DNA of 64,000 nucleotides from Arenicellales bacterium (GCA_965200765.1 OZ241380.1:2022288-2086287); one strand, 5' to 3'. Positions 7,747 through 53,461 are shown, counted from the stretch's first letter. Notes: generated by a model from the letters alone, not told the origin. A program made the numbers and translations.

Positions 7747-7778
7747 AATAACAGACTGAATAACCTTCACAAACAACG

Positions 7779-8027: not shown

Positions 8028-8037
8028 AAAAGCAATA

Positions 8038-8118: not shown

Positions 8119-8214
8119 TCTGGCATGCAAGTGACAAAGTACATTAGATTGTGAATTCTTGCACAGGCCGAGTCTGTAACAATTTCGCCTTGAAATTCTT
8201 TCCAACAGGAAATA

Positions 8215-8410: not shown

Positions 8411-9428
8411 GTGCCAGCCATGCAAATGCACATGCCTCTACCAGGTCCGGCGGAATGCCAAGTTTTGTTGTGTCATGGACCTGAACATTTGAACCTTCGC
8501 GCAGGTGTTGCATAATTGCCTGGTTCTTCGCGCCACCACCACAAACATAGATCTCATCCACTGCAGGAAGTCTTGCACCGATTTCGAACAAAATAGACTT
8601 TGCGGTAAATTTGGCAAGTGTGCTTTGAACTTCTGACTGTTTGAGTACCAGACCCAGTCTATCCAGTTGTTGTAATAGCCAGTCTATACCGAACTCACGT
8701 GTATCAAGACTTTTCGGTATTGGTCGGGAAAAGTACGGCGCACTCATCAAAATATCCAGGAGTTCTTCATTCGGTTCTGACGACAAAGCCCATTGTCCAT
8801 CAGCATCGTACCGTTGGCCCTTGTGCATGAAGGTCCAAGCATCGCATAAAACATTTCCGGGGCCAGTGTCAAACCCGATTGTGTCCTCGGATTCATTCGA
8901 AGGCAAAAAAGTAACGTTTGAAATCCCGCCGATATTGACAATTGCCCGAGCCTTGTTACGACCTCTGAATACTGCTTGGTGAAATGCAGGTGCCAGAGGC
9001 GCACCCTGCCCACCCGCCAGCATGTCTGCTTCACGAAAATTCGATACAACCGGCAACCCGGTTTGATTGGCAACAACGCTGGCATCACCCAATTGCCAAC
9101 TGAACGACGGCCGGGTTTCCGGACTGTGCAATATGGTCTGACCGTGGCAACCGACGGCATTGATTCCGAAGATTTCATTGCCAGTCATCAATTTGCGAAT
9201 GGATTGGGCATAGAGTTGACCCAGCTCGGCTTCCATTTCACGAGCAAGCTCGGATTCCCGGATGGGAGACTTCAGCAACTCTTTGAGCTTGGCCCGAGTA
9301 TTGTCTGAATAGGGGGTGTACTCGCTACCTAGTACCTGCGGCTGGTTGTTCTGATGAAATGAAACAAGGACAGAATCAATGCCATCCATGCTTGACCCGG
9401 ACATCAGGCCGATATAGCAGGACTCCAT
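8322..9428 (-). CDS. anmK: Anhydro-N-acetylmuramic acid kinase
   Basis: IGLMSGSSMDGID, GCHGQT, GGQGAPL, NIGGISN, GFDTGPGN, CGGGAKN. Confidence 0.96.
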   Translation of the reverse strand: MESCYIGLMSGSSMDGIDSVLVSFHQNNQPQVLGSEYTPYSDNTRAKLKELLKSPIRESELAREMEAELGQLYAQSIRKLMTGNEIFGINAVGCHGQTILHSPETRPSFSWQLGDASVVANQTGLPVVSNFREADMLAGGQGAPLAPAFHQAVFRGRNKARAIVNIGGISNVTFLPSNESEDTIGFDTGPGNVLCDAWTFMHKGQRYDADGQWALSSEPNEELLDILMSAPYFSRPIPKSLDTREFGIDWLLQQLDRLGLVLKQSEVQSTLAKFTAKSILFEIGARLPAVDEIYVCGGGAKNQAIMQHLREGSNVQVHDTTKLGIPPDLVEACAFAWLAQRRIQNLPGNIPSVTGARSKVVLGEITYP

Positions 9429-9451
9429 AGAGACGAATGATTCAGTTGCGG

Positions 9452-11119
9452 CTACTCGGCCGACTTCAATTTCTCCTTGACTTCGGGAGGCGTATACGCA
9501 AGTTTCGGTTGTTCAATCAGATCAAGCATTTTCGAATGATCAGCAACTTGCTGTTCAAATTGCTCTTTGTACTGTTCCGGAATTGGCTTGCCGTTGGGCA
9601 ATGGATAGTTTACCGGGTCGCGATGCTTGCCATTCACGCGGAATTCGTAGTGCAAATGCGGTCCTGTCGACACACCGGTTGATCCGACGTAACCGATGGT
9701 CTGCCCTTGCTCGACTACCTTGCCTACATGAAATTTCTTTGCAAACCGGCTCAAATGAGCATAATAGGTTTCATACTTGCTACCATGCCGGATAACAATC
9801 GTCTTGCCGAATCCGCCTTTCCAACCCATGAACGCAACAATCCCCGCTGCTGTAGAGCGGATTGGGGTTCCTGTTTTCGCTCCGTAATCCACACCTCTGT
9901 GCGGCATCCATTTCTTGTAAATCGGATGAAATCTGCTTTTGCTGAAAACCGATGTAATTCTGGCAAACTCTAGCGGTGCGCGCAAGAAATGTCCACGCAT
10001 GTTTTCGCCATGCTGGTCGTAATATATTGTTCTTCCATAGTTGTCCACATGACGATGCGCATCAAGCACTCCCTTTGCATTTTGATATCTCGCGACAATG
10101 ATGATCGGATCTCCTACACTTGTACCATCAATGTATCCCTGCTTGTAAACAACGCAAAATTCATCGTTCTTTCGTGCTTGTCTGACAAAGTCAATTCTGG
10201 ACGAGAACAGGTCAACAAATGCGAACAGCACCGGCTCCGGGATGCCCGTTTCATAGCCGCTGGTGAACAGGTTGTACTTGACGGTTCCACAAGCACTGTG
10301 GGTTTGATATTCAGGTTGAAGAGTCTTTTGACTGAAATAGTATTGTTCGTCTACACGAAATACCGAGGAGATTTCAAGCGGGCCGGTTTGCAGTTCAACC
10401 TTGGCGAATGATCCGTCCCGATAGGTAGCGATTCTGAGTTCATCCCCGACTTTTAGATTTCGAAACCATTTTTGCTTGGGTGTATTTGCAACTCTGAATG
10501 CATCGATTGCCGGCAAGCCCAGGCGTTGAAATATTCCTGTCAATGAGTCACCCGGTGTCACGTCGCTACTTTTCCAGATCAGCTGGGCTTCGTCTATTTC
10601 TGGCAATGGGTCTTGCTTGTTCTTCGGCTGTATGGAAGGATGTGTCTGTTTCAGAATTGCGCTGAGGGAACCTGCTTCTTCCGCGACAGATGATTCCAGT
10701 AGCATCATTTCGTCGTCCAGATACAAGTACATCAGTACTAGCTTGCTTCTGCGATAGTACTCCATGCCCAGCAAATCGCCGCGGGAATTTCTGGCGACAC
10801 GCAGTTCGTCATTCGGGTGTATCACCTTCAAGTACTTCTTCGCCTTCGGGAATTTGATCATCTCCTTGACCAAATCCATGTCGAGATCGATGCGCTTGAA
10901 AATTCTGCTGAGCGAGTCGCCGGAGTGAACAATTTCGAAAGTCCAGCGGACTTCAGGCAAGATACTTGCCGAGCTACGTCCGGTCAACTCTTCCTGCAAC
11001 GCGGCATCGGTAACAAGAGATGAATTTGCAATGGGCGACACGATGGGCAACACGAACGCAAGCAAAATTGCCATTCGTTTGCCAAATCGATTGATCGTCA
11101 AGTTTTTCTTCACATTCAC
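9452..11119 (-). CDS. M23 family peptidoglycan DD-endopeptidase (OapA/LysM-like N-terminal domains)
   Basis: HRGVDYGA, YYAHL and TGPHLHYEF zinc motifs; upstream of anmK. Confidence 0.92.
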   Translation of the reverse strand: MNVKKNLTINRFGKRMAILLAFVLPIVSPIANSSLVTDAALQEELTGRSSASILPEVRWTFEIVHSGDSLSRIFKRIDLDMDLVKEMIKFPKAKKYLKVIHPNDELRVARNSRGDLLGMEYYRRSKLVLMYLYLDDEMMLLESSVAEEAGSLSAILKQTHPSIQPKNKQDPLPEIDEAQLIWKSSDVTPGDSLTGIFQRLGLPAIDAFRVANTPKQKWFRNLKVGDELRIATYRDGSFAKVELQTGPLEISSVFRVDEQYYFSQKTLQPEYQTHSACGTVKYNLFTSGYETGIPEPVLFAFVDLFSSRIDFVRQARKNDEFCVVYKQGYIDGTSVGDPIIIVARYQNAKGVLDAHRHVDNYGRTIYYDQHGENMRGHFLRAPLEFARITSVFSKSRFHPIYKKWMPHRGVDYGAKTGTPIRSTAAGIVAFMGWKGGFGKTIVIRHGSKYETYYAHLSRFAKKFHVGKVVEQGQTIGYVGSTGVSTGPHLHYEFRVNGKHRDPVNYPLPNGKPIPEQYKEQFEQQVADHSKMLDLIEQPKLAYTPPEVKEKLKSAE

Positions 11120-11810
11120 AGTTGAAAATACCCTCGCCTAGCGTTGAATAAATCGTAGTCGAAAATCAATCGTCCAGTCTGTTGTGTTAGCCGTATATAC
11201 TCAATATACAAATTGAAAACCAAAAGAAAGCCAAATTATACTTGAAATCTGCCTGAATTTCCAAACTTTATCCGCTGTCTTTGAGAAAGACGCGTATTGA
11301 AACGCCATTGCCATGATGGTAGTCACCAAGATCATACTTGGTCCAATACGGCAAGGACCACCGTTCAACCAGGCATGAATTTTGCCCTCTTGTTCTCAAC
11401 TCTGCTGAACTTCTCGACGAAGAATCAACCTGGAATTCGTGTTTTGGTATACAAGAAAAATACTATTCACCTCCCCTTCATCGACTGACTTGATGTCATG
11501 AATCTGCAATGCACAGAAAATTGGCAGTGCCCACAAAGTGAAATGCACAGGATTCAGGACAGACTCTGTAACGCGATACCAGATTAGGCGCACCAACCCT
11601 TGTGCGGTTCGCTACCAAGTCAGGACTGCTCGGTCCAACAGTGCTTCTTGGCAAAAACAACACAAAAATTGGCAAATTTACCGTTTACAGGGGAAATTCA
11701 AGTCTTGTACCCTTGATATTGACAGGTTTAGGCATTGCAACCTTAAATTTGTTACTATAATGTTAAACTGATGTATTCATTTTCACTAACGAGAATTTGT
11801 ATTTTCTCTG

Positions 11811-14291
11811 ATGTACAACAATTTCTTTACACAAGCGCTGGGCGAAAGCAAAACACCGTTTGCTTACCAAGTCGCACTCGCCGAAAAAGAATGGCCTGAT
11901 GCGTTGGTTGCACCCACCGGATTTGGTAAAACCGCTGCAGTCATTCTCGGATGGGCATGGAAGAATGCATCCAGGCAGAAAGTCCCCAGACGACTGATTT
12001 ATTGTTTACCAATGCGTACACTTGTTGACCAGACAGAGCAAAACGCAAAAATTTGGATAGAGCAGCTATGTAAAGCAAATAAGAGTTGGAGATCAAACTT
12101 GCCTGACCCCGACAAAGACATACATGTACTTATGGGCGGTTCGACTGATTCAAAATGGTATGAAAGGCCAGAACGTAAAGCAATTCTCATTGGAACCCAA
12201 GACATGCTGTTGAGCCGTGCTTTGATGCGCGGCTACGCGATGAGTCGATATCGATGGCCAGTTGACTTTGCGTTGCTTCACAACGATACACAATGGGTTT
12301 TCGACGAGGTGCAACTGATGGGGTCAGGGCTTGCCACCTCAGCTCAATTGGAGGGATTTCGCAATAAATGGGGAAACTGCCTTCCTTCTGGAAGTTTGTG
12401 GATCTCGGCAACCCTGGAACCAAGTTGGCTTCACACCTTTGATTTCCAGCGAAAACCTGAAGTCTGGCAATGCCCCGAACAGTTTTCCGAAGACAAAAAG
12501 TCAGCTCGAGTTCGTAAGTTACTCAATGCCCCCAAACCATTGGAAAAATCAGAAATTGCACCTGTAAGTGCCAATAAATCTGACTTGCTTGCTTATGTGA
12601 AGGCCATAGCAAATGAAGCAATTTCGCTCCATAGAGCGAATCAGATGACTCTGGTAATAGTCAATACAGTTGAACGGGCACAAGGAGTTTACAACGAATT
12701 GGTGAAGTGCCATAAAGGTGAAGAACATCATTTGGCACTGATTCACTCTCGATTTCGCCCCGCCGATCGTAGATTGCAAATGGAAAAATTGCCACAACCG
12801 GGACAACAGAAAAATCTGATTGTGGTCTCAACGCAGGCTATTGAGGCAGGGATTGACATGTCGGCATCTGTATTGCTGACAGAAGTGGCACCAATATCAT
12901 CTTTGGTGCAACGTTTTGGACGAGTCAATCGCTACGGGGAATTGAATTCAAAAGGTGGTGGGTTGATTCGCTGGATTGATCTTGTAGGTGCCGCCGAGGA
13001 CAATATAGGGAAAGAAAAACTGTCCGCACCTTACACACTTGAAGAAGTTGAGAGAGGCGGGGAATATATTGGGTCCAAAAATGATGCGTGTCCGTCGCAA
13101 CTTCATCAACCATTATCAACCGATCATTCACATCAATCGGTGATTCGCTCCAAAGACATGCTCGACTTATTTGACACCGATCCGGATTTAACCGGCTTCG
13201 ATGTCGATGTCTCCCCGTTCATTCGTGAAAGTATGGACACTGACATTAGAGTGTTCTGGCGCGATCTGGATTCCAAAGACAAACAAGAAAACCCGGAACC
13301 ACTTCCAACCAGAGAGGAGTTGTGTACGATACCGATCGGACGAGCAAAATCTTGGCTGAACAATGTAAAAAGAAAAGACAAGGACTCTGTATTTCAATTG
13401 AATCCAAGAGCAGGGTCAGCAACCGATACATCGCCTTGGACCCGACTAACAGAAGAACCGTGGCCAGGTATGGTCCTGATGATCAAAAGTTCAGTCGGTG
13501 GATATTCCTCTACAACAGGATTTGATCCGCAACAAAATAAATCAGTCGAATCAATTGAAATCAGTGCAAAAATAAATTCAGCAGTTGATGAACTTTACCA
13601 TTCTGATTCGGATTCTAGAAAGTCTGTGTTCGTCAGCCTTGAAGATCATTTGCAACATGTTGCAAATGAGGCAGAACTTCTGTGCGACGAACTCGAAATT
13701 GTTAATGGTTTTCGCAATCAGATCATTCAGGCATCAGCTTGGCATGATCTGGGCAAGGCACACAAAGAATTTCAATCGCGAATGAAATCAACAAACGAAG
13801 CAGAACATCCGCGCCCCGATAAAATTCTTGCCAAAGCACTCGCATACGCTCCCGATAAAAACAGTAGCCAAAAATACTTCAGACACGAACTTGCATCTGC
13901 ACTGGCCTACTTGTCTCACCACAATTGGACTCGAGAGGCAGATCTCATTGCTTATTTGATAGCGGCGCATCACGGCAAAGTACGTATGAACATTCAGTCA
14001 CTGCCGTCTGAACGATCAACCCAGAGTAGAATCGCTCGCGGTGTGATTGAAGGCGATGAACTGCCTGCATTTGATCTGCCATCAGGGGAATCTTGGAAAC
14101 GGGACAAACTTACTCTGACAATCATGGAGTTGGGAGAACATCCTGAAACTGGCGCAAGTTGGACTGAGCGTACTCAAAAACTACTTGGTGACTATGGGCC
14201 CTTTCAACTCGCGTGGCTCGAAGCGTTAGTACGAATATCTGACTGGCGAGCATCAAAAAAGGAAGAGACTGGAGAATATGAAACAAAATAG
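11811..14291 (+). CDS. cas3: Type I-G (I-U) CRISPR helicase-nuclease Cas3 with C-terminal HD domain
   Basis: APTGFGKT, YCLPMRTL, DEVQ, SATL, HSRF, STQAIEAG, QRFGRVNR; C-terminal WHDLGK and AAHHG. Confidence 0.95.
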   Translation: MYNNFFTQALGESKTPFAYQVALAEKEWPDALVAPTGFGKTAAVILGWAWKNASRQKVPRRLIYCLPMRTLVDQTEQNAKIWIEQLCKANKSWRSNLPDPDKDIHVLMGGSTDSKWYERPERKAILIGTQDMLLSRALMRGYAMSRYRWPVDFALLHNDTQWVFDEVQLMGSGLATSAQLEGFRNKWGNCLPSGSLWISATLEPSWLHTFDFQRKPEVWQCPEQFSEDKKSARVRKLLNAPKPLEKSEIAPVSANKSDLLAYVKAIANEAISLHRANQMTLVIVNTVERAQGVYNELVKCHKGEEHHLALIHSRFRPADRRLQMEKLPQPGQQKNLIVVSTQAIEAGIDMSASVLLTEVAPISSLVQRFGRVNRYGELNSKGGGLIRWIDLVGAAEDNIGKEKLSAPYTLEEVERGGEYIGSKNDACPSQLHQPLSTDHSHQSVIRSKDMLDLFDTDPDLTGFDVDVSPFIRESMDTDIRVFWRDLDSKDKQENPEPLPTREELCTIPIGRAKSWLNNVKRKDKDSVFQLNPRAGSATDTSPWTRLTEEPWPGMVLMIKSSVGGYSSTTGFDPQQNKSVESIEISAKINSAVDELYHSDSDSRKSVFVSLEDHLQHVANEAELLCDELEIVNGFRNQIIQASAWHDLGKAHKEFQSRMKSTNEAEHPRPDKILAKALAYAPDKNSSQKYFRHELASALAYLSHHNWTREADLIAYLIAAHHGKVRMNIQSLPSERSTQSRIARGVIEGDELPAFDLPSGESWKRDKLTLTIMELGEHPETGASWTERTQKLLGDYGPFQLAWLEALVRISDWRASKKEETGEYETK

Positions 14292-16560
14292 TATCCGCAC
14301 GGGTTGTTCATCCAAACCCCTCTTAAGCTATTTGAAAGCCTTGGGTATCTTGCGCCTTGTTTCAAATCCAGAAAACAATGTTAACGAGGTTGCGGCTGAT
14401 AGTCACATCCGAGGTTGGTGGGTTAACCAGCAATTTCATATTAATACTAGTCTCAATAGCGAAGAATTAGTTGAATTTTTTCTCTACAACTATTCTCCAA
14501 GTGCGGTAACTACCCCGTGGAACGGAGGGAGTGGTTTCTACAAAAAAGACAATAAAGAAGCAGTCAGTTCACTCCTGGCTCCATCAATTTCCCCTCGCTT
14601 CAGAACTCTGGCAACTGCTATTGAACAGGCAAATGCTGTGGTAAAGCGACTAGGTTTAGAAGAAGCGCCCAAAAATGGAGGCAAACGTGCGCTCATTGCA
14701 GAGCTTCGCAATACTTTTCCTGATTTCGTACTCGAATGGCTAGACGCTTCACTTGTACTTTCAGGAGACACCCTAAAATTTCCTCAAATTCTCGGAACAG
14801 GAGGCAATGATGGGCGATTGGATTTTACGATTAATTTTCATCAAAGACTCTTGTCAAATGAAAATTCAAATAAATTAAAGGGGCTATTTGATGTTACTAC
14901 CGGCTTGCCGACGAGCGAGGCGAATCGTTTGTTGCGAAACAGCCTTTTCGATGACTGCACCCACGGGTTTCACTCTGTTGCAGTCGGCCAATTTGACCCA
15001 GGTGCGGTCGGTGGTCCCAATGCTATTAGTGAAAGTTTTGATGCGGCTCCCAAGGTTAACCCATGGGACTATGTGTTATCTATTGAAGGAGCAATTATGT
15101 TTGCAGGTGCAGCGACTCGTCGTCATCAAGCTTCAAAAATCTCAGGGGCTAGTTTTCCATTTACTGTACGAATGACTGGTGCTGGTAGTGGCAATGTATC
15201 AAGTTCAGATGAAATTAATGCGCGTGCAGAATTTTGGGCACCGCTTTGGAACCAACCATCTAGTTATAGTGAACTTCGAGGATTGCTTAAAGAGGGTCGT
15301 GCCGTTCTGCAGGAAAAAATTGCTAGTGACGGACTGGATTTCGCTCGCGCCGTGGCAAGTCTTGGAATTAATCGTGGAATTGAGAGTTTTCAAAGATATG
15401 GCTTTGTGATGCTATCAGGGAAAGCTTACTTGGCAACTCCGATCGGTGTTCGAAAAGTTTCATCACCTAGTGCAAATTCAGCAAGTTTAATCGACGACCT
15501 TGATACTGGAGATTGGTTAAATCGTGTGAGTAAACTTGCCAAGGGTGAAAACTCTTCATCTCGCGGAGCGGTGTCCTTTCAGCGTTTGGAAAATGCACTT
15601 TTTGCAATGTCTGAAAAAACCAATTTCTCCCCGCAACCTGTGCAACTTGCGCTTGAAGCGTTAGGTGAGTTAGTAGAATGGCTACAGTATAACAAAGAGG
15701 TTGTTGAAAATAAACAGATGCCGCCGCCGCCTCCACGCTTGTCCAGAGCTTGGCAAAGAATTTGTGACGACAACACACCTGAATTTCGAATTGCAAGTGC
15801 ACTCGCAAGCTTGGGCTGGCAAACACCCAAATCCCGGGAAGCGTCCACTGAAGGTGAACTTCCATCAACAAAGCGTTCAATTCCCATGGCTGCACATGTT
15901 GCACCAGTAGAAATAGGGTCAATTTTCAGGAGATATCGTAGTTGGGATACACAATCTCGATGCTTTCTTAACGTATGGCGTGGAAGTGACCTGGAGTCAA
16001 TTTTAATCAGTGTATTAAATCGCAGACTCGTCGAACAGTCTATAGACAAATCTGAAGTGAAACAGCTGTATGGCTTATCCAAAGTACGGTTATCTGATAT
16101 TGAAGCATTTTTCTCACCAACCTTTGATGATGCACGATGTTTACGTTTACTTGCAGGGCTCGTTTGGACTGAACCAGCAAAGATTTTCAATAAACAAAAA
16201 TTGGATTCTCACAGTAAAGTTGTACCATTTTCTTACGCAGTATTGAAATTGCTGTTCTCTCCAACCGATACTATTCAATATTGCAAGCAAGCAAATCTGC
16301 TACCACCAGATTGCGAAATTCCGATACCAGCAAAGATTATCCCTCGTTTAAGGAGTGGATATATTGATGAGACCATTGAAACAGCACTTCAAAGACTTCG
16401 TGCATCTAATGTACCTACACCATTTCACTCATCAAGAGTTAAACATATAGGTGTCACCGGAAGACGCTTGGCAGCTTCGCTACTAATTCCACTGAATAAC
16501 TTTGAGTCAAAAATATTGCTTCAAAGGGTTTGTGATGTGGAAGAGATACAGAATATTTAG
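14278..16560 (+). CDS. csx17: Type I-G large subunit Cas8g (Csx17)
   Basis: LLSYLKALG, TPWNGGSGFY, LGTGGNDGRLDF, NPWDYVLSIEGA; directly after cas3. Confidence 0.9.
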   Translation: MKQNSIRTGCSSKPLLSYLKALGILRLVSNPENNVNEVAADSHIRGWWVNQQFHINTSLNSEELVEFFLYNYSPSAVTTPWNGGSGFYKKDNKEAVSSLLAPSISPRFRTLATAIEQANAVVKRLGLEEAPKNGGKRALIAELRNTFPDFVLEWLDASLVLSGDTLKFPQILGTGGNDGRLDFTINFHQRLLSNENSNKLKGLFDVTTGLPTSEANRLLRNSLFDDCTHGFHSVAVGQFDPGAVGGPNAISESFDAAPKVNPWDYVLSIEGAIMFAGAATRRHQASKISGASFPFTVRMTGAGSGNVSSSDEINARAEFWAPLWNQPSSYSELRGLLKEGRAVLQEKIASDGLDFARAVASLGINRGIESFQRYGFVMLSGKAYLATPIGVRKVSSPSANSASLIDDLDTGDWLNRVSKLAKGENSSSRGAVSFQRLENALFAMSEKTNFSPQPVQLALEALGELVEWLQYNKEVVENKQMPPPPPRLSRAWQRICDDNTPEFRIASALASLGWQTPKSREASTEGELPSTKRSIPMAAHVAPVEIGSIFRRYRSWDTQSRCFLNVWRGSDLESILISVLNRRLVEQSIDKSEVKQLYGLSKVRLSDIEAFFSPTFDDARCLRLLAGLVWTEPAKIFNKQKLDSHSKVVPFSYAVLKLLFSPTDTIQYCKQANLLPPDCEIPIPAKIIPRLRSGYIDETIETALQRLRASNVPTPFHSSRVKHIGVTGRRLAASLLIPLNNFESKILLQRVCDVEEIQNI

Positions 16561-45918: not shown

Positions 45919-46131
45919 ATGAAAAGAAAACCTGTAGTTTCAAGAAATATCCGGACCATAGGCTATGAAGAGTCAACTCAAACACTGGAAATCGAGTTCT
46001 TGAATAGTTTTATTTTCCAATACTATAATGTTCCACAGATCATTTACAGTGAAATGATGAAAGCCGAATCCAAGGGTAAATTCTTACATTTCTACATAGA
46101 AAATGCTTACCCGTATTCACGGGTTGGATAA
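45919..46131 (+). CDS. KTSC domain protein 1
   Basis: V.SRNIRTIGY....TLEIEF....QYYNVP...Y..MM.A.SKGKF; AAGGAG RBS. Confidence 0.92.
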   Translation: MKRKPVVSRNIRTIGYEESTQTLEIEFLNSFIFQYYNVPQIIYSEMMKAESKGKFLHFYIENAYPYSRVG

Positions 46132-46183
46132 ACGCCTATTTTCCTGATTCATTTTATCACAGACCACTGTGAACTGGATAATT

Positions 46184-47739
46184 GGTCGGCCCTGAAAAAC
46201 CCTGTTTCAGGGAGTTTTCAGGCAGATTGGCAATATCTCTGGAAAGCGAGAAACGACATTGTTTTTTCCAGCCCGAAGCAAGAAAATAGTCGCCGCAAAA
46301 AATCGGCACAAATAATCCTGATTTTCTTCAGGATTATGCGCATGTTGTGCCCCGCACAACTCAGCATCGCATTCATCTGGTCGCCTTCGGTGCCTTTCAG
46401 GTAATTCCGCCCCATCAGTCCGTCGTTCTTGAGGTGCCCGATCACCGGCTCAATCGCTTGCCGTCGCTTGAGCAGACGCTTCAGCTGTGCATTCACGCCG
46501 CGCTTTTGACCGGAAATGAAAACCTGTGAATCCGTCACGCCGTGACCGCGATAGCCACGGTCCACGAACACTTGTTCCGGCTTGGTTCCAGTAATACGCT
46601 CAACCTGGTCAAGCTGGGCCGACAGCGTATGACCATCATACGGATTGCCCGGAAACGCCCGACCGCCCAGCACGAAATTGCTTCGATTGGTCACCGCAAT
46701 CCCCACTTTCACACCGAATTCGTAGCGCTTGTGAACCTTGCCCTTGCTGATGCACTCCACCTCCGGTGCATGTGCACTGTACACCTTGTTCTTGCTGGTT
46801 CTCTCTTGTGTCATCACACGTTTGGCCAGCTCCAGCTCCGACTCCAGATGCGATTCCGCCAACTGCTGAACACAAGGATTCGCAATCTGGTCGATCTTTC
46901 TCTCCACATCACGCGCCACACGACCCAAAATCGTGCGCAATTTCTTCACCTCCCCCTTCATCCGCTTCATTTGACGCGCATGCGCATAGCGATTCACCTT
47001 GAAAAGTCGCTTCGGACCCACTCGCACATAGCTTTGGCGAAGTTTCAAACCCGCGGCACGTGCTTTCTTCACCAAACGCTCGCGTACCCGATTCAGCAAT
47101 TTCGCATCGGTCGGATACGTCACCGCCTTTTCCTGCACCGTGGTATCCACCGTCACACGCTTCAAGTCGCTTTTCTTCAACGCACCGGTCGCCATTCCAG
47201 CGGTCACCGTCGACTTCAAGATCAGCTCGCATCCCGATTCGCCGATCCGGTGGCGAAACCGGGACAGACTGCTCGTATCCAGCTGCGACTCCTGCTGAAA
47301 ATGCGTTTCACCGCAAAAATACTGCGCATACGGACTGTCCAGCCACCATTCAACAATTTCTTCATCCGACAAGCCGCGGGTATGCTTGAGCAGCAGCAGA
47401 CCCACCATCATTCGTATCGGAAGACCGGGACGACCATTGTCCGGGCAATACAGTTCTCCGAAATGATTCTCGAACATTTCCCAAGGAATCTGCTCGGCCA
47501 GCTTTACCAGCGGATGGTCAGGCCGACAGGCGTAGTCCAGGGCAATGCGAAACATTTCACTTTGATGCAGCGACTTGGGCTTGTGCGGGGTCATTTTTTC
47601 TCCTGGATATTGCAAGAAATCAAGCAGTGATTATACAATTCCTTGCAATTTCATGCTTGCTTTTTCGCACTTTCTTGAATTGATTCTTCAATCAAATCAA
47701 ATCGTTGTACAACCCAAAATGGGTTTTTCATGGCCGACT
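46184..47739 (-). mobile_element. IS5-family insertion sequence (transposase ORF 46218..47615)
   Basis: VDTTVQEKAV, CISKGK, FVDRGYRG, RQAIEPVIGHLK. Terminal IRs GTCGGCC(C/A)TGAAAAACCC at 46185-46202 and 47721-47738 (17/18 match). TAATTG on both flanks (AATT-core target duplication). Confidence 0.96.
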
Positions 47740-48200
47740 AATTGGGGGCTTGTTTATTTCTTGGCTTTGTAAGTCTAAATCTTTAAGTATTTGATTCTAT
47801 TACAGTTCACTTAGAAAGCAAGGCTCCGCGAACATGATTGTCAGTCGTCTCCAGACAATCCAGTATCCACTTGCCAAGTTTTTCACCAGAGTTAACGAAA
47901 CTTTGCACGGCACCTTCATACCATTGGACCGGCAGACGGTTGTCGGATTCTTCACGCAGTCGTACAACATCTCACAAGCTGCTCCTGCGAACCATTCAAT
48001 CAGCGTTCACACTGCTGGCGAAAGATTTTGATGACAACAGAACTGATCCGAAGGCAAAAGCTGTACCTCAGCACACCAGAGAACCATTCCAAACTATACA
48101 GGTTACCAAGTGTATTGCCAGACTACAGCCTCGAACTCCCCAATTTCCCACTGCCCTAGTAGTCTATGTCTCAATGCATCATTCAGAGAAAAACAACAGA

Positions 48201-48575
48201 CCTGTCTACCGTACGAATATTAGCGTTTTCGCGATTCGGTTAACCAATCCAGTTGACCGCGAGAGAATCAAAGGAACATTTCCGGACGGGCTTTTAACCT
48301 TGCTAGACGCCTTGCCAATTCTTCGCACAGGCGAAGTTATTGTTATGGGAGAAGCTTCCAAGTTACCCATGCGCTACCGAGTAACATTGCCACCAACGCT
48401 TCTTCAACCAAAAAGTCTTGACCCTGATGTATCCAAAAATTGGGCTCTTGACCGTAAACCCGAAGAAGGTTATGATAGAGTGATAGCTTCGTGGCATGCA
48501 CAGGATTCACGTACTGTTGCGAAGGAAACCATAATTGAACAAAAAACTACAACCAACAAATATGAAAATGAATAG
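48201..48575 (+). pseudogene. C-terminal remnant of a HerA/DUF87-type ATPase
   Basis: VFAIRLTNPVDRERIKGTFPD...LPILRTGEVIVMGEA.KLP...DPDVSK.W. The Walker A-containing N-terminus is absent and the upstream part of the ORF is not homologous. Confidence 0.7.
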
Positions 48576-48584
48576 GTGTACATT

Positions 48585-48797
48585 ATGCAAAACACCCCTC
48601 TATCTGAATCACGACTTCGTTCATTTGGCTATGATCAGCCAAACCGGACTCTAGAACTTGTGTTTTTGAATGGTAAAATTTACCAGTACTACGCTGTTCC
48701 AGAGAACTTGTACAATGATATGGAAAAAGCTGAATGCACAAGTAAGTTCTTCCATTTATACATAAAAAATGTCTACGCTTTTGCACGAGTAAAATAA
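48585..48797 (+). CDS. KTSC domain protein 2
   Basis: SRLRSFGYD....TLELVF.NG.IYQYY.VPE.LY; starts 9 nt after the HerA remnant stop. Confidence 0.88.
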   Translation: MQNTPLSESRLRSFGYDQPNRTLELVFLNGKIYQYYAVPENLYNDMEKAECTSKFFHLYIKNVYAFARVK

Positions 48798-49634
48798 ACA
48801 TTTTTTTGGTTCCTTGTTTTGCAGAACACTGCGAATTGGATTGTATCGCACTCGCAAACATCCCGACTTGGTCAATCCAAGTATATAACCCCTTTCAATT
48901 GAGCGGTGACACCTGTTCGAATCGAACATGCAACATGGCCCATTAACAAACAACCCGTACTTGTTCAAACGAATCAGTTCTGTGTTTACAGGTGTTCTGC
49001 GTTGCAACAACCATACGATATCCCACAGATCTCTAGCTTTGATTCTTTTTCGATGAGGGACAGCAACAAGCTTGTCTGTGAGTATTTCTGTTTCCGATGA
49101 ACTCTTGTAAAGCATAGTGTTGTAACCGTCTGGCAGAACACCGTAATGTGCCTGGACCAGCCTATACTCAACATCGTAAGTTGGAAATTTGGCTACATCT
49201 ATATGAATTCGCTGAGAATCAGTCCTGCCTCGCCCTCCATGAGTGTAAACAATAATTTTCCAAGTAAGTGCCACGTGACCAGAAAACGTTGAATCTCCAT
49301 CGAATTGCTTTGGACTTCTCGTTTCGACCTCCAAACCATAACGCTTTCCTATGTATCGCTCGGCTTCAATAAGTAGTTTGTCGAACCTTTTGTTGTCAAA
49401 ATTGGCACCGACATGAAAATCCAAATCTTCGCTATACCGGGTTGAACCGTGGCAATATCTCAAGCATGAGCCCCCGATAAATGTATGGTCAGGAGTCAAC
49501 AACCGCTTGTTTTGAAACAGAAACAGAAGGTCGTAGTGAATAAGTTCATTCTCAATCACTCGTCGAACTCTGGCCAATTCAGGTCTTTGGCTGACTACGA
49601 TGTTTGCCAGTTCAGACAGGCTACTTGGTTTCAT
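48756..49634 (-). CDS. abiEii: AbiEii-type nucleotidyltransferase toxin (C-terminus probably truncated or replaced)
   Basis: FIGGSCLRYCHGSTRYSEDLDF, TDKLVA..HR..IKARDLWD. Confidence 0.85.
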   Translation of the reverse strand: MKPSSLSELANIVVSQRPELARVRRVIENELIHYDLLFLFQNKRLLTPDHTFIGGSCLRYCHGSTRYSEDLDFHVGANFDNKRFDKLLIEAERYIGKRYGLEVETRSPKQFDGDSTFSGHVALTWKIIVYTHGGRGRTDSQRIHIDVAKFPTYDVEYRLVQAHYGVLPDGYNTMLYKSSSETEILTDKLVAVPHRKRIKARDLWDIVWLLQRRTPVNTELIRLNKYGLFVNGPCCMFDSNRCHRSIERGYILGLTKSGCLRVRYNPIRSVLQNKEPKKCLFYSCKSVDIFYV

Positions 49635-50175
49635 TGATGACCTCCTCGTAGTTTTCCATGTTTACTAGCCCTAAGTTACGCCTTACGCGTCTCAGGTCGG
49701 ACAAAGCCAATTGTGGTGTGGCGACTCGCAGTGGGCGCTCATGCTCAAAATAAGTACCGAGCAAAATCTCAGACTCACTTCGATTCGTATGGGTAAACTC
49801 AATCGCTCCATCTTCCATACGGTAGATTTGGCTTCGTCCAGTGGTCATTACAGTAAGGTAGGTTAGCGTTTGCTGGCTAATAATGCTGTATTGCGACAAT
49901 GCAGTTTCCAGACTGACGTAAGAAAGATGACCGATTCTTAAAGCAACTGCAATTGCTTCATGCCTGAAAACGCATCGTCGGAATTCACGACGATACACAT
50001 AAACACCTCGGCAAACCCGCTGGAGCACATTGTTCTTTACCGCACGCTCAATGGTCTTCTTGAGTGTATTCTCCGATTCTTCTGGAAAATATGCTCTAAG
50101 CATACCGATTGAAAATGCCGATATCCCGTGTGTACCCAACAGGTCAAGCCGTTCTGCAAACTCGTTGTATTTCAT
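49621..50175 (-). CDS. abiEi: AbiEi-type type IV antitoxin / transcriptional regulator
   Basis: wHTH LQRVCRGVY, SYVSLETALSQYSIISQ, ATPQLALSD; overlaps the abiEii start. Confidence 0.85.
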   Translation of the reverse strand: MKYNEFAERLDLLGTHGISAFSIGMLRAYFPEESENTLKKTIERAVKNNVLQRVCRGVYVYRREFRRCVFRHEAIAVALRIGHLSYVSLETALSQYSIISQQTLTYLTVMTTGRSQIYRMEDGAIEFTHTNRSESEILLGTYFEHERPLRVATPQLALSDLRRVRRNLGLVNMENYEEVINETK

Positions 50176-50989
50176 GGTTTGTATTGTCCAATGGTCCCAC
50201 TTTCAATCTTTGGGTTGGTTCACCTCAGTTCAAGTCGAAATATATACAGAAAGTATATATAATATTATCTGAATTGTAAAGCAAATTCATGCCGTGTGTA
50301 CTATCCCACTGACAAAATGGTTCTCTTGATTCTTCAATTTCCTCTGTCTTGTCAATGTAGTTCACAGGATTTACAACGCGATTGTGGCTCAAATTCCAAG
50401 TGATTGCAGTATCCACCCGGTGAAAGCAGCTGCCGTGTAGGCAGGATAACAGGACACACCGGCAAACTGCATTCCATGCTGTCCATTTACTTCGAGAAAG
50501 GTGCCAGATTCTGAAGTACTGGTACCCGTCGGAGGAATTGAGACTGTGACGCACACAGTGTTCGGTTGTTGGTTCCATCGTAGAATTACTGTCCAAACGG
50601 GGTCAATATACATTCAACAGAAAGGACTCATTCCTAAACGCACGCAAAAAGAGAATGTCTTCTAGTGTATCATTTTCAATATTCGTTCAGCCATGAACTC
50701 GGTTGTCAAGCACTCAGTTGATGCCTTTTCATTGCCAAAATTTATGAGCACATGCGGTCGTAATAAGGAAGAGTTTATTAAAATTTTCAAATTAACAGAA
50801 TATTAATCAGAACGTTTGGCGAGTCTAAATGACGAGTTGAAACTTCCAACCATAACGACAAGTTCTCTGAATGTGGCATTACAAAGTGAATTTCATTTGT
50901 AGAAGGAACTATACGGGTTGTCAACTGGGCAAAAAAACAACCATAGAATTTACTTATTGAATTAAAGGCACATTTGATCACAGACTAGC

Positions 50990-51287
50990 GGGAAGATGGT
51001 CTTGTCAACCAAATTAATACAAGAAGCATTGTGTTAAGAATGCGCGAAGAAAAGCAACGCGGGCAGTTTATCTTTTCAACTCAAAATTTTCACATTTTTC
51101 AGTTTTATGAGATGCTGATTTAACATGCGAACTTAGCACACCTGTCAGAATCGAGTACAATGGGGAACAAAATCGAGAAGAGCATCTGGATTCACTTGAC
51201 GATGTAGCAGTATTTGTACTGGTTGAGCAGATTCTGGAAGTTGACAAGGATGCGTTTGAGTGGAGGCGCAAAAAATACGGATTCTAA
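50990..51287 (+). pseudogene. Frameshifted C-terminal remnant of a TrlF-like / ABC-type AAA ATPase (absent from the ORF track)
   Basis: Manual translation: EDGLVNQINTRSIVLRMREEKQRGQFIFSTQN (fs) DADL...SLDDVAVFVLVEQILEVDKDAFEWRRKKYGF*, resembling EDDLDN...REEK.RRQFIF.THN...GDAE...LEGG..AF..R..KYGF. Confidence 0.6.
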
Positions 51288-51289
51288 TT

Positions 51290-52594
51290 ATGAACTTACA
51301 AAATCGAACTGAAGTCACCGAGTTGATTGTCAATGGTGAAAACTCTTACGTTGAATTCGAGCGAGACGATTTGCAACAAGAAAGACTGTGCATGGAGTTT
51401 GCAGCGCTTATGAATATGAACGGAGGTTATATTCTGCTTGGCGTTGAGCACGATGGAGCAGTTTCAGGTTTAACTCGCAACCCTGGTAAAGCTGAGGAAT
51501 GGGTTATGGAAGTAGCCCGAACGGGCGTAAATCCGGCAATTTCCCCAAAATGGCATTCGCTTGAATGGGAACCAGGGAAATTTATAGGAATAATTTCATT
51601 GCCCTCGAATGCCCCCAACAAGCCATACCAAGCAAAATGTGATTCTGTCTGGATCTCACCAGTTCGTGTTGGCACAAAAACTCGTCAAGCAACCCGTGAA
51701 GAATCATTAAGACTATATGTGCAAGGAGGTCTAATTGAGTACGAACGCATGCTTGCACATAACGCAGGCTTGGAAGATTTGGATAGGAAACGACTTGTAA
51801 ACTATTATCGAAATGTAAAGCAGCAAGAAATATTTGCTGAGGACGAAATTGAGCAGTGGGAGAACTTATTACGAAATTCCGGGTTTATCTGCGAAAACGA
51901 TGGAAATTTGGTTCCGAGTGCTGCGGGAATGCTACTTTTCGGTAAAAATCCAAAACGCTATTTTCCTCAAACCGGGATAACTGCTGTTGCCTATGTAGGA
52001 ACTGAAAAAGACTATGATGCAAGAGGCAGCGCTTACATCAGCGGTCCGCTCGTTTCATTGTTTCAGTCCACGGAACCACTATCAATGCAAAACCACCCCT
52101 CAATTCAGCGACAGTTTTCAGATCCACTCTCAATTGTCGAAACGGGAATAATTGACAATGCGGTCAATTTCGTGCATCGGTCAATAAATGTTAATACCTT
52201 TATCGACAGTGAAGGACGATGCAAAGAAAAATGGGACTATCCTTTTCAAGCCGTGCGTGAGGCGATCATAAACGCAGTAACTCATCGCGAATATGCATTC
52301 CAAGGCACTGATATCGAATTATCTATCTATTCTGATCGAATAGAAATCATTTCTCCGGGGCATTTGCCGAATGCAGTAACTGTGGAAAAAATAAGACGCG
52401 GTTATCGGTCTGTGCGAAACAAAATCATTAAGGAAGTGTTGCGAGACTATCGATATATCGAAGCAAAAGGCATGGGTGTGCCTCAAAAAATTATCAAGGA
52501 AATGCGTGAACACAATGGAACTGAGGTTGATCTGATTAATAAGGACGACAGATTTACAGTTCGATTGTGGAGGCTACCGAATGGGGCGAAGTAG
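51290..52594 (+). CDS. AlbA_2 (Schlafen-like) domain plus HATPase_c_4/RecG-C domain protein
   Basis: GENSYVEF, AALMNMNGGYILLGVEHDG, REAIINAVTHREY, EIISPG.LP, RN..I..VL, EAKGMG. Confidence 0.88.
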   Translation: MNLQNRTEVTELIVNGENSYVEFERDDLQQERLCMEFAALMNMNGGYILLGVEHDGAVSGLTRNPGKAEEWVMEVARTGVNPAISPKWHSLEWEPGKFIGIISLPSNAPNKPYQAKCDSVWISPVRVGTKTRQATREESLRLYVQGGLIEYERMLAHNAGLEDLDRKRLVNYYRNVKQQEIFAEDEIEQWENLLRNSGFICENDGNLVPSAAGMLLFGKNPKRYFPQTGITAVAYVGTEKDYDARGSAYISGPLVSLFQSTEPLSMQNHPSIQRQFSDPLSIVETGIIDNAVNFVHRSINVNTFIDSEGRCKEKWDYPFQAVREAIINAVTHREYAFQGTDIELSIYSDRIEIISPGHLPNAVTVEKIRRGYRSVRNKIIKEVLRDYRYIEAKGMGVPQKIIKEMREHNGTEVDLINKDDRFTVRLWRLPNGAK

Positions 52595-52669
52595 GTTTAA
52601 TAGCATGGGAGTTCGATTGAATTTCTTTTCCTTTGCCTTGGGTACCTGCCGACTTCTCAGCAATCACCC

Positions 52670-52915
52670 CGGCCTTGTTTCGACCACACCCTCCACCTAT
52701 ATCAGCGACTTCGACAACCTATGACCATAGTACAGATTACCCAGCTCCGATTGGTTACCGCGATCCCCCACCATCACACCGAGTCGCAACGCTTGCGCAC
52801 CTTGCCCTTGCTAATGCACCCAGTTTCCGACACATGCATACTTATAAAACTTGTTCTTGTCGGTTTTCTTCTGCGAATGCACACGCTTGCACCAGTACCA
52901 ACTCAAGTTTGAGCT
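52670..52915 (-). pseudogene. Decayed IS5 transposase fragment homologous to the 46184 element
   Basis: Minus-strand frames give KRVHSQKKTDKNKFY..CISKGKVRKR..GIAVTNRS..GNLYYGHRLS versus intact KRVMTQERTSKNKVY..CISKGKVHKR..GIAVTNRS..GNPYDGHTLS. Confidence 0.85.
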
Positions 52916-52982
52916 CAAAGTCAAGAATCATCCTCAGCTTCTTCACTTGGGTGTTCATCCGCGTCAACTTTGGAGCGGAGAA

Positions 52983-53201
52983 TTATCTGACTCGCGAAAA
53001 TGAATAGACGTACCTGATATGCTCGCGAAAATAATTTTCTTTTACACCTGATTGCATTAACTGCTCGTACAGTTCTTCAGGGACATTGTAAAACTGATAT
53101 GCAGCTTCATTCGAGAACACGACTTCAAGTGTTTGCGACTTCGCACTGTATCCAATAGCAGAAATTATGGAGGCGGCACGTGAGGAATTGTTCATATTCA
53201 A
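52983..53201 (-). CDS. KTSC domain protein 3
   Basis: SIISAIGY....TLEVVF....YQFYNVPEELY..LM. Confidence 0.88.
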   Translation of the reverse strand: MNMNNSSRAASIISAIGYSAKSQTLEVVFSNEAAYQFYNVPEELYEQLMQSGVKENYFREHIRYVYSFSRVR

Positions 53202-53248
53202 TTAATCTTGCTTGTAAGTGTCCACTATTAGTTGAAGTACACCCGAAG

Positions 53249-53461
53249 CTATCCAACACGGGTATACGAATAGCCGTATCTAATGTAAACGTGGAAGAAC
53301 TTCCCTTTAGAACCTGCATTCATCAGGTGGTCAAAGATGTTACCAGGTACATTGTAGTACTGATACACACCACCTCCACGAAATTCAATTTCCAGAGTTT
53401 CAGTTTTGGGTTCATATCCGACAGAATAGAGGTTTGATGAACTTACAAATTGTCGTTTCAT
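53249..53461 (-). CDS. KTSC domain protein 4
   Basis: VSSSNLYSVGY....TLEIEF.GG.VYQYYNVP...LMNA.SKGKFF; GGAG RBS. Confidence 0.93.
   Translation of the reverse strand: MKRQFVSSSNLYSVGYEPKTETLEIEFRGGGVYQYYNVPGNIFDHLMNAGSKGKFFHVYIRYGYSYTRVG

What the first reader, a model, noticed from the sequence alone, without database searches (positions are those of the whole stretch)
45919..53461. Four intact KTSC genes bracket a decayed defence-type island
Seen: KTSC1(+) and KTSC2(+) lie on the left, KTSC3(-) and KTSC4(-) on the right. The outer pair is canonical (SKGKF); the inner pair has diverged at that motif (CTSKFF, VKENYF). All four end R-V-[G/K/R] and are full-length. Their neighbours are remnants or mobile genes (HerA, TrlF-like, IS5 remnant, AbiEii tail). 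Established: KTSC is a roughly 60-aa predicted nucleic-acid-binding domain of largely unknown function. Inference: selective retention of divergent paralogs suggests a dedicated role, for example a defence accessory, sensor or inhibitor, with specialised variants.
Basis: partly seen in the sequence, partly recalled or inferred. Interest (0 to 1): 0.65.

Follow-up and report, generated by a model that had tools for sequence, protein, structure and literature searches.

The report
KTSC bookends of gutted SIR2-HerA cassettes
The four small KTSC genes are the surviving end-pieces of two mirror-image copies of a known anti-phage system (SIR2-HerA) whose working genes were recently deleted, so they are leftovers of a known machine, with only a hint that such leftovers can stay useful.

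Summary
There are four intact 70-aa KTSC ORFs (PF13619, E 1e-17 to 6e-24), with the orientation and motifs described.

KTSC is defence-linked, but as the detached C-terminal 'arm' domain of HerA in Paenibacillus-type SIR2-HerA systems. It is fused in the solved HerA (8WIV, residues 628-696). It is a separate gene directly behind herA in 78/80 genome loci and 67/80 metagenome loci.

Each KTSC pair brackets a gutted KTSC-SIR2-HerA-KTSC cassette:
- **Left (K1...K2):** a 3.27-kb deletion plus a young IS.
- **Right (K4-K3):** a clean 3.37-kb deletion that leaves the last 8 HerA codons.

Close relatives carry each cassette intact at this locus, and a third intact cassette lies 1.58 Mb away.

Recent selective retention is not shown:
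- The dead HerA fragment has the same dN/dS (0.40) as the KTSCs (0.33-0.46).
- K3 is frameshifted in one strain.
- K1 is missing in others.

The upstream KTSC of the intact cassette follows a strongly decayed older HerA tail yet is itself pristine.

The parts
45919..46131 (+). K1: upstream, canonical-type KTSC of the left cassette (SKGKF...YPYSRVG). It has a strong AAGGAG Shine-Dalgarno sequence.
   Evidence: PF13619, 70.2 bits. 86% aa identity to KA of the intact paralogous cassette. One aa difference from K1 of the intact left cassette in L204. RBS seen.
46181..47747 (-). Complete IS5/IS1182-family insertion sequence (transposase 46218-47615, 465 aa) inserted between K1 and the spacer. The target TAATTG(G) is duplicated.
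   Evidence: DUF772 plus DDE_Tnp_1. At least 6 copies at 97-99.9% identity elsewhere in the genome. Absent from the otherwise identical haplotypes L111/L112. Ends read.
47748..48219 (+). First 472 bp of the roughly 1-kb non-coding spacer that separates the upstream KTSC from SIR2 in the intact cassette.
   Evidence: 95.6% identical to L007 9179-8708 and 94.6% to L204. No codon periodicity. No Rfam hit.
48220..48225 (.). Junction of the 3.27-kb deletion that removed the rest of the spacer, all of SIR2 and HerA residues 1 to about 495.
   Evidence: L007 8708 joins 5437 and L204 (flipped) 11428 joins 14691, versus window 48219/48221 joining 48226.
48226..48575 (+). Dead HerA C-terminal fragment (residues 496-622 of 622). 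It is still an open frame, fused to junk upstream.
   Evidence: PADLOC HerA PDLC04105, 7e-23. tblastn 87% identity to L204 HerA. dN/dS 0.40 versus L007.
48585..48797 (+). K2: downstream, HerA-coupled KTSC of the left cassette, of the divergent type (ECTSKFF...YAFARVK).
   Evidence: PF13619, 64.9 bits. Sits where 78/80 related loci have their KTSC. AF2 model pLDDT 88. Foldseek TM 0.93 to 7x8c and 0.85-0.87 to the HerA C-terminal domain of 8wld/8wiv/8wof.
48966..49634 (-). AbiEii toxin gene truncated at its 3' end (residues 1-223 of 300). The ORF runs on as junk to 48756.
   Evidence: PADLOC AbiEii, 1.9e-63, covering profile positions 3-210 of 282. A 523-bp deletion relative to L111/L112/L095. 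tblastn.
49621..50175 (-). AbiEi antitoxin/regulator, intact.
   Evidence: PADLOC AbiEi PDLC02232, 1.1e-56, full length.
50657..51284 (+). Frameshifted 3' remnant (residues about 676-895) of a TrlF-family AAA-like ATPase. About 2.35 kb of the gene is deleted.
   Evidence: L113 has the intact 895-aa gene (NF045780, 519 bits, cut-off 350). Window 50705 to 50827 corresponds to L113 2687 to 5038. tblastn gives three pieces.
51260..52594 (+). AlbA_2 (Schlafen-like) plus HATPase_c_4 gene, intact. It is the partner of TrlF in strain L113.
   Evidence: Pfam PF04326 and PF13749. Gene order in L113.
52744..52904 (.). Short IS5-like remnant.
   Evidence: 72-74% identity to an internal part of the IS copies.
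52983..53195 (-). K3: downstream, HerA-coupled KTSC of the right cassette, the most divergent copy (GVKENYF...YSFSRVR).
   Evidence: PF13619, 63.4 bits. 96% aa identity to the KTSC directly behind HerA in L095. Longest branch in the tree.
53196..53248 (-). Scar of the 3.37-kb deletion of SIR2 plus HerA. It holds the last 8 HerA codons (IVDTYKQD*), the junction at about 53227-53229, and 20 nt that follow K4.
   Evidence: L095 1620-2059 equals window 53666-53227, and L095 5425-9702 equals window 53229-48964. Junction sequences.
53249..53461 (-). K4: upstream, canonical-type KTSC of the right cassette.
   Evidence: PF13619, 84 bits. 93% aa identity to the KTSC upstream of SIR2 in L094/L095.

Best explanation
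**What the four genes are.** The four KTSC genes are the end genes ('bookends') of two inverted copies of a four-gene unit: KTSC(up) - spacer - SIR2 - HerA - KTSC(down). These units sat at the two ends of a roughly 16-kb defence island. The island lies in a variable hot spot between maoC and gdpd/mobBA.

**What happened in this genome.**
- Both units were gutted by illegitimate internal deletions of 3.27 kb (left) and 3.37 kb (right).
- These deletions removed the SIR2 NADase and the HerA motor.
- Further deletions truncated AbiEii and removed most of a TrlF ATPase gene.
- An active IS landed behind K1.

**What KTSC does.** KTSC is the distal part of the C-terminal 'arm' domain of HerA in Paenibacillus-type SIR2-HerA systems. 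In that family it is either fused to HerA or, much more often, encoded as a separate 70-aa gene right behind herA.
- Inferred from the fusion and the cryo-EM description: it docks on the HerA hexamer as part of the arm that wraps the neighbouring subunit.
- Shown: it is a constant third part of the machine.

**The two kinds of copy here.**
- The inner copies (K2, K3) are the HerA-coupled ones. They have diverged strongly.
- The outer copies (K1, K4) look like ordinary HerA-partner KTSCs. At least in the K1/KA lineage they are relics of a still older cassette.

**Current status (inferred).** In this window the four genes have no local HerA to bind. They are intact mainly because the deletions are young and internal, not because selection has been shown to keep them.
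For: **1. Paralogous intact cassette in the same genome (L007).** The order is KA - 1 kb - SIR2 (PDLC04094, 1.7e-156) - HerA (PDLC04105, 7e-158) - KB. The window aligns to it as K1, spacer, then HerA tail plus K2, with 3.27 kb missing.

**2. Orthologous intact states at this very locus in close relatives.**
- Right cassette K4-SIR2-HerA-K3 in L094/L095.
- Left cassette K1-SIR2-HerA-K2 in L204/L205/L208, found through the flanking MaoC protein and therefore not through KTSC.
- The window keeps the last 8 HerA codons in front of K3, so this was a deletion, not an insertion.

**3. KTSC is a split HerA domain.**
- K4 matches residues 628-696 of the Paenibacillus sp. 453MF HerA (8wiv) at 8.6e-15.
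- L007 HerA matches residues 10-607 of the same chain at 9e-168.
- The K2 model superposes on that domain with TM 0.85-0.87.
- The paper describes aa 576-696 as an arm domain that wraps the neighbouring subunit (PMC11472057).

**4. Linkage.**
- 78/80 genome loci have SIR2-HerA-KTSC. The two exceptions are cut by a contig end or truncated.
- 67/80 metagenome loci retrieved with a KTSC alignment have HerA directly upstream.

**5. Youth of the events.**
- The IS is 99.9% identical to other copies.
- The HerA remnant is still open and 61.6% median identity to other HerAs, like live tails.
- Strains sharing the deletions differ by 0-3 substitutions per KTSC.

**6. No sign of selection specific to the KTSCs.** dN/dS is 0.33-0.46 for the KTSCs versus 0.40 for the dead HerA piece.

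**7. Empty site in a same-genus genome.** In G001, maoC is followed by 1.3 kb and then gdpd.
Against: - **The deletions spare the KTSCs more neatly than chance suggests.** Three independent core deletions (window left, window right, and L118 at the second locus) all stop short of both KTSC genes. A naive random-placement model gives 0.009 x 0.14 x 0.074, about 1e-4. However, these loci were found through KTSC, and deletions running outward would hit maoC, gdpd or the AbiE genes. So this is not a fair test.
- **An older relic argues that an orphaned KTSC can be kept by selection.** KA is 59% identical to canonical KTSCs. The HerA tail immediately in front of it has decayed to 28-42% identity and carries a stop codon. 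Between L007 and L115, the upstream KTSC is 89% identical with no gaps, while the flanking non-coding DNA is 78-80% identical with many gaps.
- **All four ORFs are unbroken.** Two of them (K1, K4) have good ribosome-binding sites.
Confidence: 0.85

Rival explanations
1. The KTSC paralogs are kept by selection because each has a role of its own, such as accessory, sensor or inhibitor of defence. That role would not depend on a neighbouring SIR2-HerA.
For: - A pristine upstream KTSC sits next to a strongly decayed HerA tail in the KA lineage.
- The upstream KTSC is more conserved than the flanking non-coding DNA.
- All intact cassettes of this genus (three locus types) carry an upstream KTSC, while 0 of 160 loci elsewhere do.
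- Three independent deletions spare both KTSCs.
- Other lineages also show a KTSC surviving behind HerA stumps: G001, L155, L156 and L191.
Against: - dN/dS of the KTSC pairs equals that of the dead HerA fragment.
- K3 is frameshifted in L097, and K1 is lost in L094/L095/L209.
- There is no power in post-deletion comparisons.
- The loci were ascertained through KTSC.
- The upstream KTSC may be conserved only because it serves the adjacent intact cassette.
Confidence: 0.2
2. The orphan KTSCs act in trans on the one intact SIR2-HerA cassette of the genome (at about 0.48 Mb). They would serve as spare or alternative arm subunits, or as competitors that tune its activation.
For: - K1 is 86% identical to KA, and K2 is 73% identical to KB, of the intact cassette.
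- In this family KTSC is a separate, diffusible polypeptide.
- The genome holds six KTSC genes for one HerA.
Against: - There is no binding, expression or phenotype data.
- K3 and K4 come from a cassette only 66% identical in DNA to the intact one.
- K3 is only 37% identical to KB.
Confidence: 0.15
3. The tandem K4-K3 pair and the K1...K2 pair are ancestral. SIR2-HerA was inserted between them in the relatives, so what looks like cassette loss would really be cassette gain.
For: Presence/absence polymorphism alone does not give a direction.
Against: - The window keeps the last 8 codons of HerA in front of K3, and 127 codons of HerA in front of K2.
- SIR2-HerA-KTSC is the conserved order in 78/80 distant loci.
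Confidence: 0.02

Closest known systems
SIR2-HerA anti-phage system of Paenibacillus sp. 453MF (cryo-EM 8W9L, 8WIV, 8WLD, 8WOF; Nucleic Acids Res 2024, PMC11472057)
   Same: - The intact cassettes behind this window's relics have a SIR2 matching 8w9l (8e-66) with the N163/D165/H212 equivalents kept.
- Their HerA matches 8wiv residues 10-607 (9e-168).
- Their KTSC equals HerA residues 628-696 of 8wiv in sequence and fold.
   Different: - Here KTSC is a separate gene, not fused to HerA.
- This genus adds a second, upstream KTSC.
- In the window itself, SIR2 and the HerA motor are deleted, so nothing functional of the enzyme core remains.
- The paper calls the region an 'arm domain' and never names it KTSC.
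HerA + KTSC + endoDNase / sirtuin neighbourhoods noted by the Aravind group (Viruses 2022, PMC9503650, as unpublished observations)
   Same: That paper links a HerA-like ATPase with a KTSC protein in predicted restriction-type conflict systems.
   Different: - They describe KTSC with an endoDNase in place of the sirtuin. Here KTSC goes with the sirtuin form.
- They call KTSC DNA-binding. The fusion and the structure point to a HerA-docking module instead.
Stand-alone KTSC proteins (PF13619; crystal structures 7X8C from Methanolobus vulcani and 4RGI, YPO2434, from Yersinia pestis)
   Same: Same 70-aa fold (three beta strands, two helices, one beta strand). The K2 model gives TM 0.93 to 7X8C and 0.90 to 4RGI.
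   Different: - Those proteins have no assigned partner.
- In an unbiased class sample, only 2 of 12 other KTSC loci are HerA-linked. The rest are fused to unknown domains or stand alone.
Solo relics of decayed defence systems in defence islands (general pattern of rapid gain and loss)
   Same: - The island sits in a hot spot that holds different cargo in related genomes.
- Enzymatic or toxic genes (SIR2, HerA, AbiEii, TrlF) are lost, while small non-enzymatic genes survive.
   Different: Here the ancestral states of both cassettes are directly observed in co-occurring strains. The survivors are one specific domain family, in pairs.

Membership tests
KTSC domain family (Pfam PF13619) | Profile match above the gathering score over the whole 58-position model | tested here: met
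   K1 70.2, K2 64.9, K3 63.4 and K4 84 bits against a cut-off of 25. Profile positions 1-3 to 58 are covered.
KTSC domain family (Pfam PF13619) | KTSC fold as in solved structures | tested here: met
   K2 AF2 model with pLDDT 88.4. Foldseek to 7x8c gives TM 0.93 and rmsd 1.0 A; to 4rgi it gives TM 0.90. The other three copies were not folded.
Paenibacillus-type SIR2-HerA(-KTSC) anti-phage system | SIR2 NADase gene with catalytic Asn/Asp/His | tested here: not met
   No SIR2 sequence is left in the window (tblastn with L204 and L095 SIR2 gives no hit). The feature is met in the paralogous cassette L007 (TNYD and HG motifs aligned to N163, D165 and H212) and in the orthologous cassettes of relatives.
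Paenibacillus-type SIR2-HerA(-KTSC) anti-phage system | Full-length HerA ATPase (beta-barrel, RecA-like core with Walker A/B, helical bundle) | tested here: not met
   On the left, only residues 496-622 of 622 remain. On the right, only 8 codons remain. The feature is met in L007, where GSTGSGKST and VMEEAH are present.
Paenibacillus-type SIR2-HerA(-KTSC) anti-phage system | KTSC module at, or directly behind, the HerA C-terminus | tested here: met
   K2 starts 10 nt after the stop of the HerA remnant. K3 follows the last 8 HerA codons. The same position is seen in 78/80 and 67/80 related loci.
Paenibacillus-type SIR2-HerA(-KTSC) anti-phage system | Protection against phage, NAD+ depletion | not testable with these tools
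With SIR2 and the HerA motor deleted, the window's cassettes cannot carry out this function.
AbiE type IV toxin-antitoxin / abortive infection | Intact AbiEi antitoxin plus an intact AbiEii nucleotidyltransferase | tested here: not met
   AbiEi is full length (1.1e-56). AbiEii stops matching at profile position 210 of 282 and has residues 1-223 of 300 relative to strains L111/L095.
IS5/IS1182-family insertion sequence | DDE transposase with DUF772 N-terminal domain, terminal inverted repeats, target duplication, multiple copies | tested here: met
   DUF772 plus DDE_Tnp_1 plus DDE_Tnp_1_6. At least 6 copies at 97-99.9% identity. Ends (G)TCGGCC...GGCCGA(C) flanked by TAATTG(G) on both sides. The precise family (IS5 versus IS1182) was not resolved.

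The most novel reading that the evidence does not exclude
Free KTSC proteins may be trans-acting modulators of KTSC-dependent HerA rings. They are 70-aa modules that can plug into, or compete for, the arm-docking site of a SIR2-HerA hexamer.

On this reading:
- The canonical upstream copy has become the working subunit in this genus.
- The downstream copies are diverging towards a new role, such as a gate or inhibitor.
- The four orphans still tune the one intact cassette.
- The free KTSC genes carried by 131 phage genomes would be decoys that disarm such systems.

An orphaned KTSC that persists beside a decayed HerA tail would then be the footprint of that independent function.
Probability: 0.12. 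Interest if true: 0.7.

Novelty: new variant of a known kind. Interest (0 to 1): 0.4.

Why it matters
- **It settles the four small genes.** They belong to a known, structurally solved anti-phage machine. This removes most of the apparent mystery.
- **It exposes a gap in system definitions.** The published definition and the PADLOC models of SIR2-HerA list two genes. In this large subfamily a third 70-aa gene is constant. It is the detached arm domain of HerA, so reconstitutions that omit it may fail.
- **It gives a clean population snapshot of defence-system turnover.** Intact and gutted states of two cassettes coexist at one locus, and a still older relic is present. All enzymatic or toxic genes are lost while small binding modules survive.
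- **It raises a testable question.** If the surviving KTSC modules prove to be kept by selection, one can ask whether small detached domains of defence machines have lives of their own.

Tried and rejected
- **Structured RNA in the conserved spacer.** I looked for a structured RNA in the 472-bp / 1-kb spacer. Rfam gave no hit at E <= 1 in the window region or in L007. There is no codon periodicity either, so it is plain non-coding DNA. Its high identity to L007 (95.6%) fits a mosaic or gene-conversion history, because the orthologous L007-L115 comparison shows only 80%.
- **Recombination between the flanking KTSC genes as the cause of the deletions.** Rejected. The KTSCs of a pair share only 68-71% DNA identity. 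The junctions lie outside them and show no repeat.
- **dN/dS as a test of retention.** It is uninformative, because the dead HerA control gives the same value. Post-deletion comparisons have too few changes.
- **KTSC tree to decide whether upstream and downstream copies each have one origin.** Unresolved: 70 columns and long branches.
- **Promoter and terminator scan.** Hits are not above the shuffled expectation (18 versus 13.9 +/- 3.6).
- **PADLOC hit of K1 to a '1TM effector'.** E = 0.004; treated as noise.
- **The single-KTSC impression on the right side of L111-L113.** This was a gene-calling gap. K3 is present there.


Full report
**Observation**

Listing ORFs and scanning Pfam confirm four 70-aa KTSC (PF13619) genes at the stated places:
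- K1, 45919-46131 (+)
- K2, 48585-48797 (+)
- K3, 52983-53195 (-)
- K4, 53249-53461 (-)

Their scores are 63-84 bits against a cut-off of 25.

KTSC is rare. It occurs in 4 of 41 close relatives and in 14 of 400 genomes of the class, almost always once. This genome has six copies. The cluster is therefore real and not chance.

**Neighbours**

PADLOC, Pfam and NCBIfam give the following:
- A complete IS5/IS1182-type IS at 46181-47747, with at least 6 near-identical copies in the genome.
- A HerA C-terminal fragment at 48226-48575.
- AbiEii lacking its last 77 residues.
- An intact AbiEi.
- A frameshifted 3' remnant of a TrlF-family ATPase at 50657-51284.
- An intact AlbA_2/HATPase_c_4 gene.
- A 160-bp IS remnant.

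**The key to the layout**

The two other KTSC genes of the genome lie 1.58 Mb away (locus L007). They flank an intact SIR2-HerA system on one strand:

KA - about 1 kb of non-coding DNA - SIR2 (428 aa, PDLC04094, 1.7e-156) - HerA (623 aa, PDLC04105, 7e-158) - KB

blastn shows that the window's left half is a copy of this unit:
- K1 is about 88% identical to the KA region.
- The first 472 bp of the spacer is 95.6% identical.
- The HerA tail plus K2 is 82% identical.
- 3.27 kb (the rest of the spacer, SIR2, and HerA residues 1 to about 495) is missing.
- The IS has been added.

**Orthologous proof from close relatives**

An exact-protein look-up of a K4 relative found metagenome contigs with the same flanking genes. 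There the right side reads gdpd | K4 | SIR2 | HerA | K3 | AlbA_2 (L094/L095).

The window differs by one clean 3365-bp deletion. Its junction lies 20 nt after K4 and leaves the last eight HerA codons (IVDTYKQD*) in front of K3. This shows loss rather than gain.

A look-up anchored on the flanking MaoC protein does not depend on KTSC. It found strains with the left cassette intact at this very site (L204/L205/L208: K1 - 1 kb - SIR2 424 aa - HerA 622 aa - K2). It also found strains gutted like the window but without the IS, and one strain with K2 only.

A same-genus genome has the empty site (maoC - 1.3 kb - gdpd). Other family members carry different cargo there.

Restored, the island would be about 16 kb:

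[K1-SIR2-HerA-K2] > < [AbiEii-AbiEi] [TrlF-AlbA_2] > < [K3-HerA-SIR2-K4]

**What KTSC is in this system**

- With the L007 HerA as query, all 80 related loci from reference genomes have SIR2 upstream. These loci are 56-71% identical and span many phyla.
- 78 of them have exactly one KTSC ORF directly behind herA. The other two are cut off. In four loci one open frame spans both genes.
- A metagenome scan seeded with a KTSC alignment found HerA directly upstream in 67 of 80 loci.
- Against the PDB, K4 matches residues 628-696 of the Paenibacillus sp. 453MF HerA (8wiv). The L007 HerA matches residues 10-607 of the same chain.
- The AlphaFold model of K2 (pLDDT 88) superposes on that domain in 8wld, 8wiv and 8wof (TM 0.85-0.87) and on free KTSC crystal structures (TM 0.90-0.93).
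- The structure paper calls aa 576-696 a 'C-terminal arm domain' that wraps the neighbouring subunit and stabilises a split-spiral hexamer. It never names it KTSC (PMC11472057).
- The Aravind group mentions HerA-KTSC neighbourhoods only as unpublished observations (PMC9503650).

So the downstream KTSC is a detached piece of HerA and a constant third part of this subfamily. Earlier notes of this scan reached the same view on other genomes. I reached it independently before reading them.

**What is special here**

No locus outside this genus has a second KTSC upstream of SIR2 (0 of 160). Every intact cassette of this genus does (L007, L115, L094/L095, L204/L205/L208).

- The upstream copies (K1, KA, K4) look like ordinary HerA-partner KTSCs. 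They are 53-59% identical to the 78 distant ones, which average 63% among themselves.
- The downstream copies (K2, KB, K3) are only 41-43% identical to those 78 and sit on long branches.

Directly in front of KA and its orthologues lies a strongly decayed HerA C-terminal tail. tblastn gives E from 1e-6 to 3e-11 and 28-42% identity, and the L007 copy has a stop codon. Live HerA tails, and the window's young stump, are 61-64% identical to the other HerAs. So the upstream KTSC is itself the relic of an older cassette, and it has stayed intact while its HerA rotted.

Between L007 and L115:

| Region | Identity | Gap columns |
|---|---|---|
| Upstream KTSC | 89% | 0 |
| HerA-tail fossil | 78% | 16 |
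| Spacer | 80% | 112 |

Similar stumps followed by an intact KTSC occur in a same-genus genome and in unrelated metagenome contigs.

**Is retention selective?**

For the window's own, recent events this cannot be shown:
- dN/dS between paralogous or orthologous KTSC pairs is 0.26-0.53. The undoubtedly dead HerA fragment gives 0.40.
- Strains sharing the deletions differ by 0-3 substitutions per KTSC.
- K3 is frameshifted in L097.
- K1 is absent in L094/L095/L209.

Three independent deletions (window left, window right, and L118 at the second locus) all spare both KTSCs. A naive placement model puts this at about 1e-4. However, most loci were found through KTSC, and outward deletions would hit other genes, so I do not count this as a fair test.

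The old relic in front of the intact cassette is the best evidence that an orphaned KTSC can be kept. It may be kept simply because it now serves the neighbouring cassette.

**Mechanism, with status**

Shown:
- The gene order.
- The deletions, their direction and their youth.
- The homology of KTSC to the HerA arm.
- The near-constant linkage of KTSC to herA.

Inferred:
- Free KTSC docks on the HerA ring, as the fused domain does.
- The four copies in the window are currently idle relics.

Open:
- Whether they act in trans on the intact cassette.
- Whether the divergent downstream copies have a new role.
- Whether the 131 phage genomes that carry free KTSC genes use them against such systems.

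**Verdict**

This is a real feature, correctly seen. It is explained mostly by a known system, SIR2-HerA with a split KTSC arm, in a decayed state. The genus-specific second KTSC and the serial-relic pattern make it a modest new variant.

Noticed in passing
L007 (own genome C1:478000-492000), about 9449-9750 on the minus strand; also L115 about 3440-3740 and L118 about 2080-2377: A strongly decayed HerA C-terminal tail (28-42% identity, with a stop codon in L007) lies directly in front of the upstream KTSC of the intact cassette. The upstream KTSC is therefore a relic of an older SIR2-HerA-KTSC cassette.
   Followed up: yes
window 50657-52594; L113 2816-6741: In strain L113 a TrlF-family AAA-like ATPase (895 aa, NF045780, 519 bits) sits 3 nt upstream of the AlbA_2/HATPase_c_4 gene. 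This may be a two-gene defence unit. In the window TrlF is reduced to a frameshifted stump, while its partner is intact.
   Followed up: partly
window 48756-50175: The AbiEii toxin gene lost its last 77 codons through a 523-bp deletion specific to this genome, while the AbiEi antitoxin gene is intact. Across the island, every enzymatic or toxic gene is broken and every small binding or regulatory gene is whole.
   Followed up: partly
window 48226-48797 versus L204 4975-5751 and L007 4741-5437: K2 and the HerA tail exist as two sharply different alleles in strains whose flanks are 97-99% identical. The window type and the KB type share about 70-73% aa identity in K2. This points to recombination between cassettes.
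   Followed up: partly
window 47748-48219; L007 8206-9235: About 1 kb of non-coding spacer lies between the upstream KTSC and SIR2. It is conserved among left-type cassettes (80-95%), has no codon periodicity and no Rfam match. It presumably holds the SIR2-HerA promoter. The right-type cassette has an unrelated 328-bp spacer.
   Followed up: partly
L099 (G180:C135:1-4653): An unrelated genome of the class has SIR2-HerA-KTSC followed by a 391-aa protein. Its first 64 residues are a second KTSC domain, and the rest has no Pfam match.
   Followed up: no
phage collection, e.g. ON453904.1 13903-14088: 131 of 50,697 phage records encode free KTSC proteins. One lies next to a Lar-like restriction-alleviation gene, and many lie in the early region of temperate streptococcal phages. 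They could be decoys for KTSC-dependent HerA systems.
   Followed up: no
L007 829-4500 and own genome C1:476213-477740: The second KTSC locus is itself a defence island. It holds a KAP NTPase (PDC-S20, 5.5e-108) and a PDDEXK_4 protein (PDC-S26). Another copy of the same IS lies just outside it, and phage-tail-like genes lie further on.
   Followed up: no
L121 (G008) 5202-14399 and L122 (G006) 4045-10349: The maoC-mobB interval holds 9.2 kb and 6.3 kb of different, KTSC-free cargo in two related genomes. It is a recurrent integration hot spot in this family.
   Followed up: no
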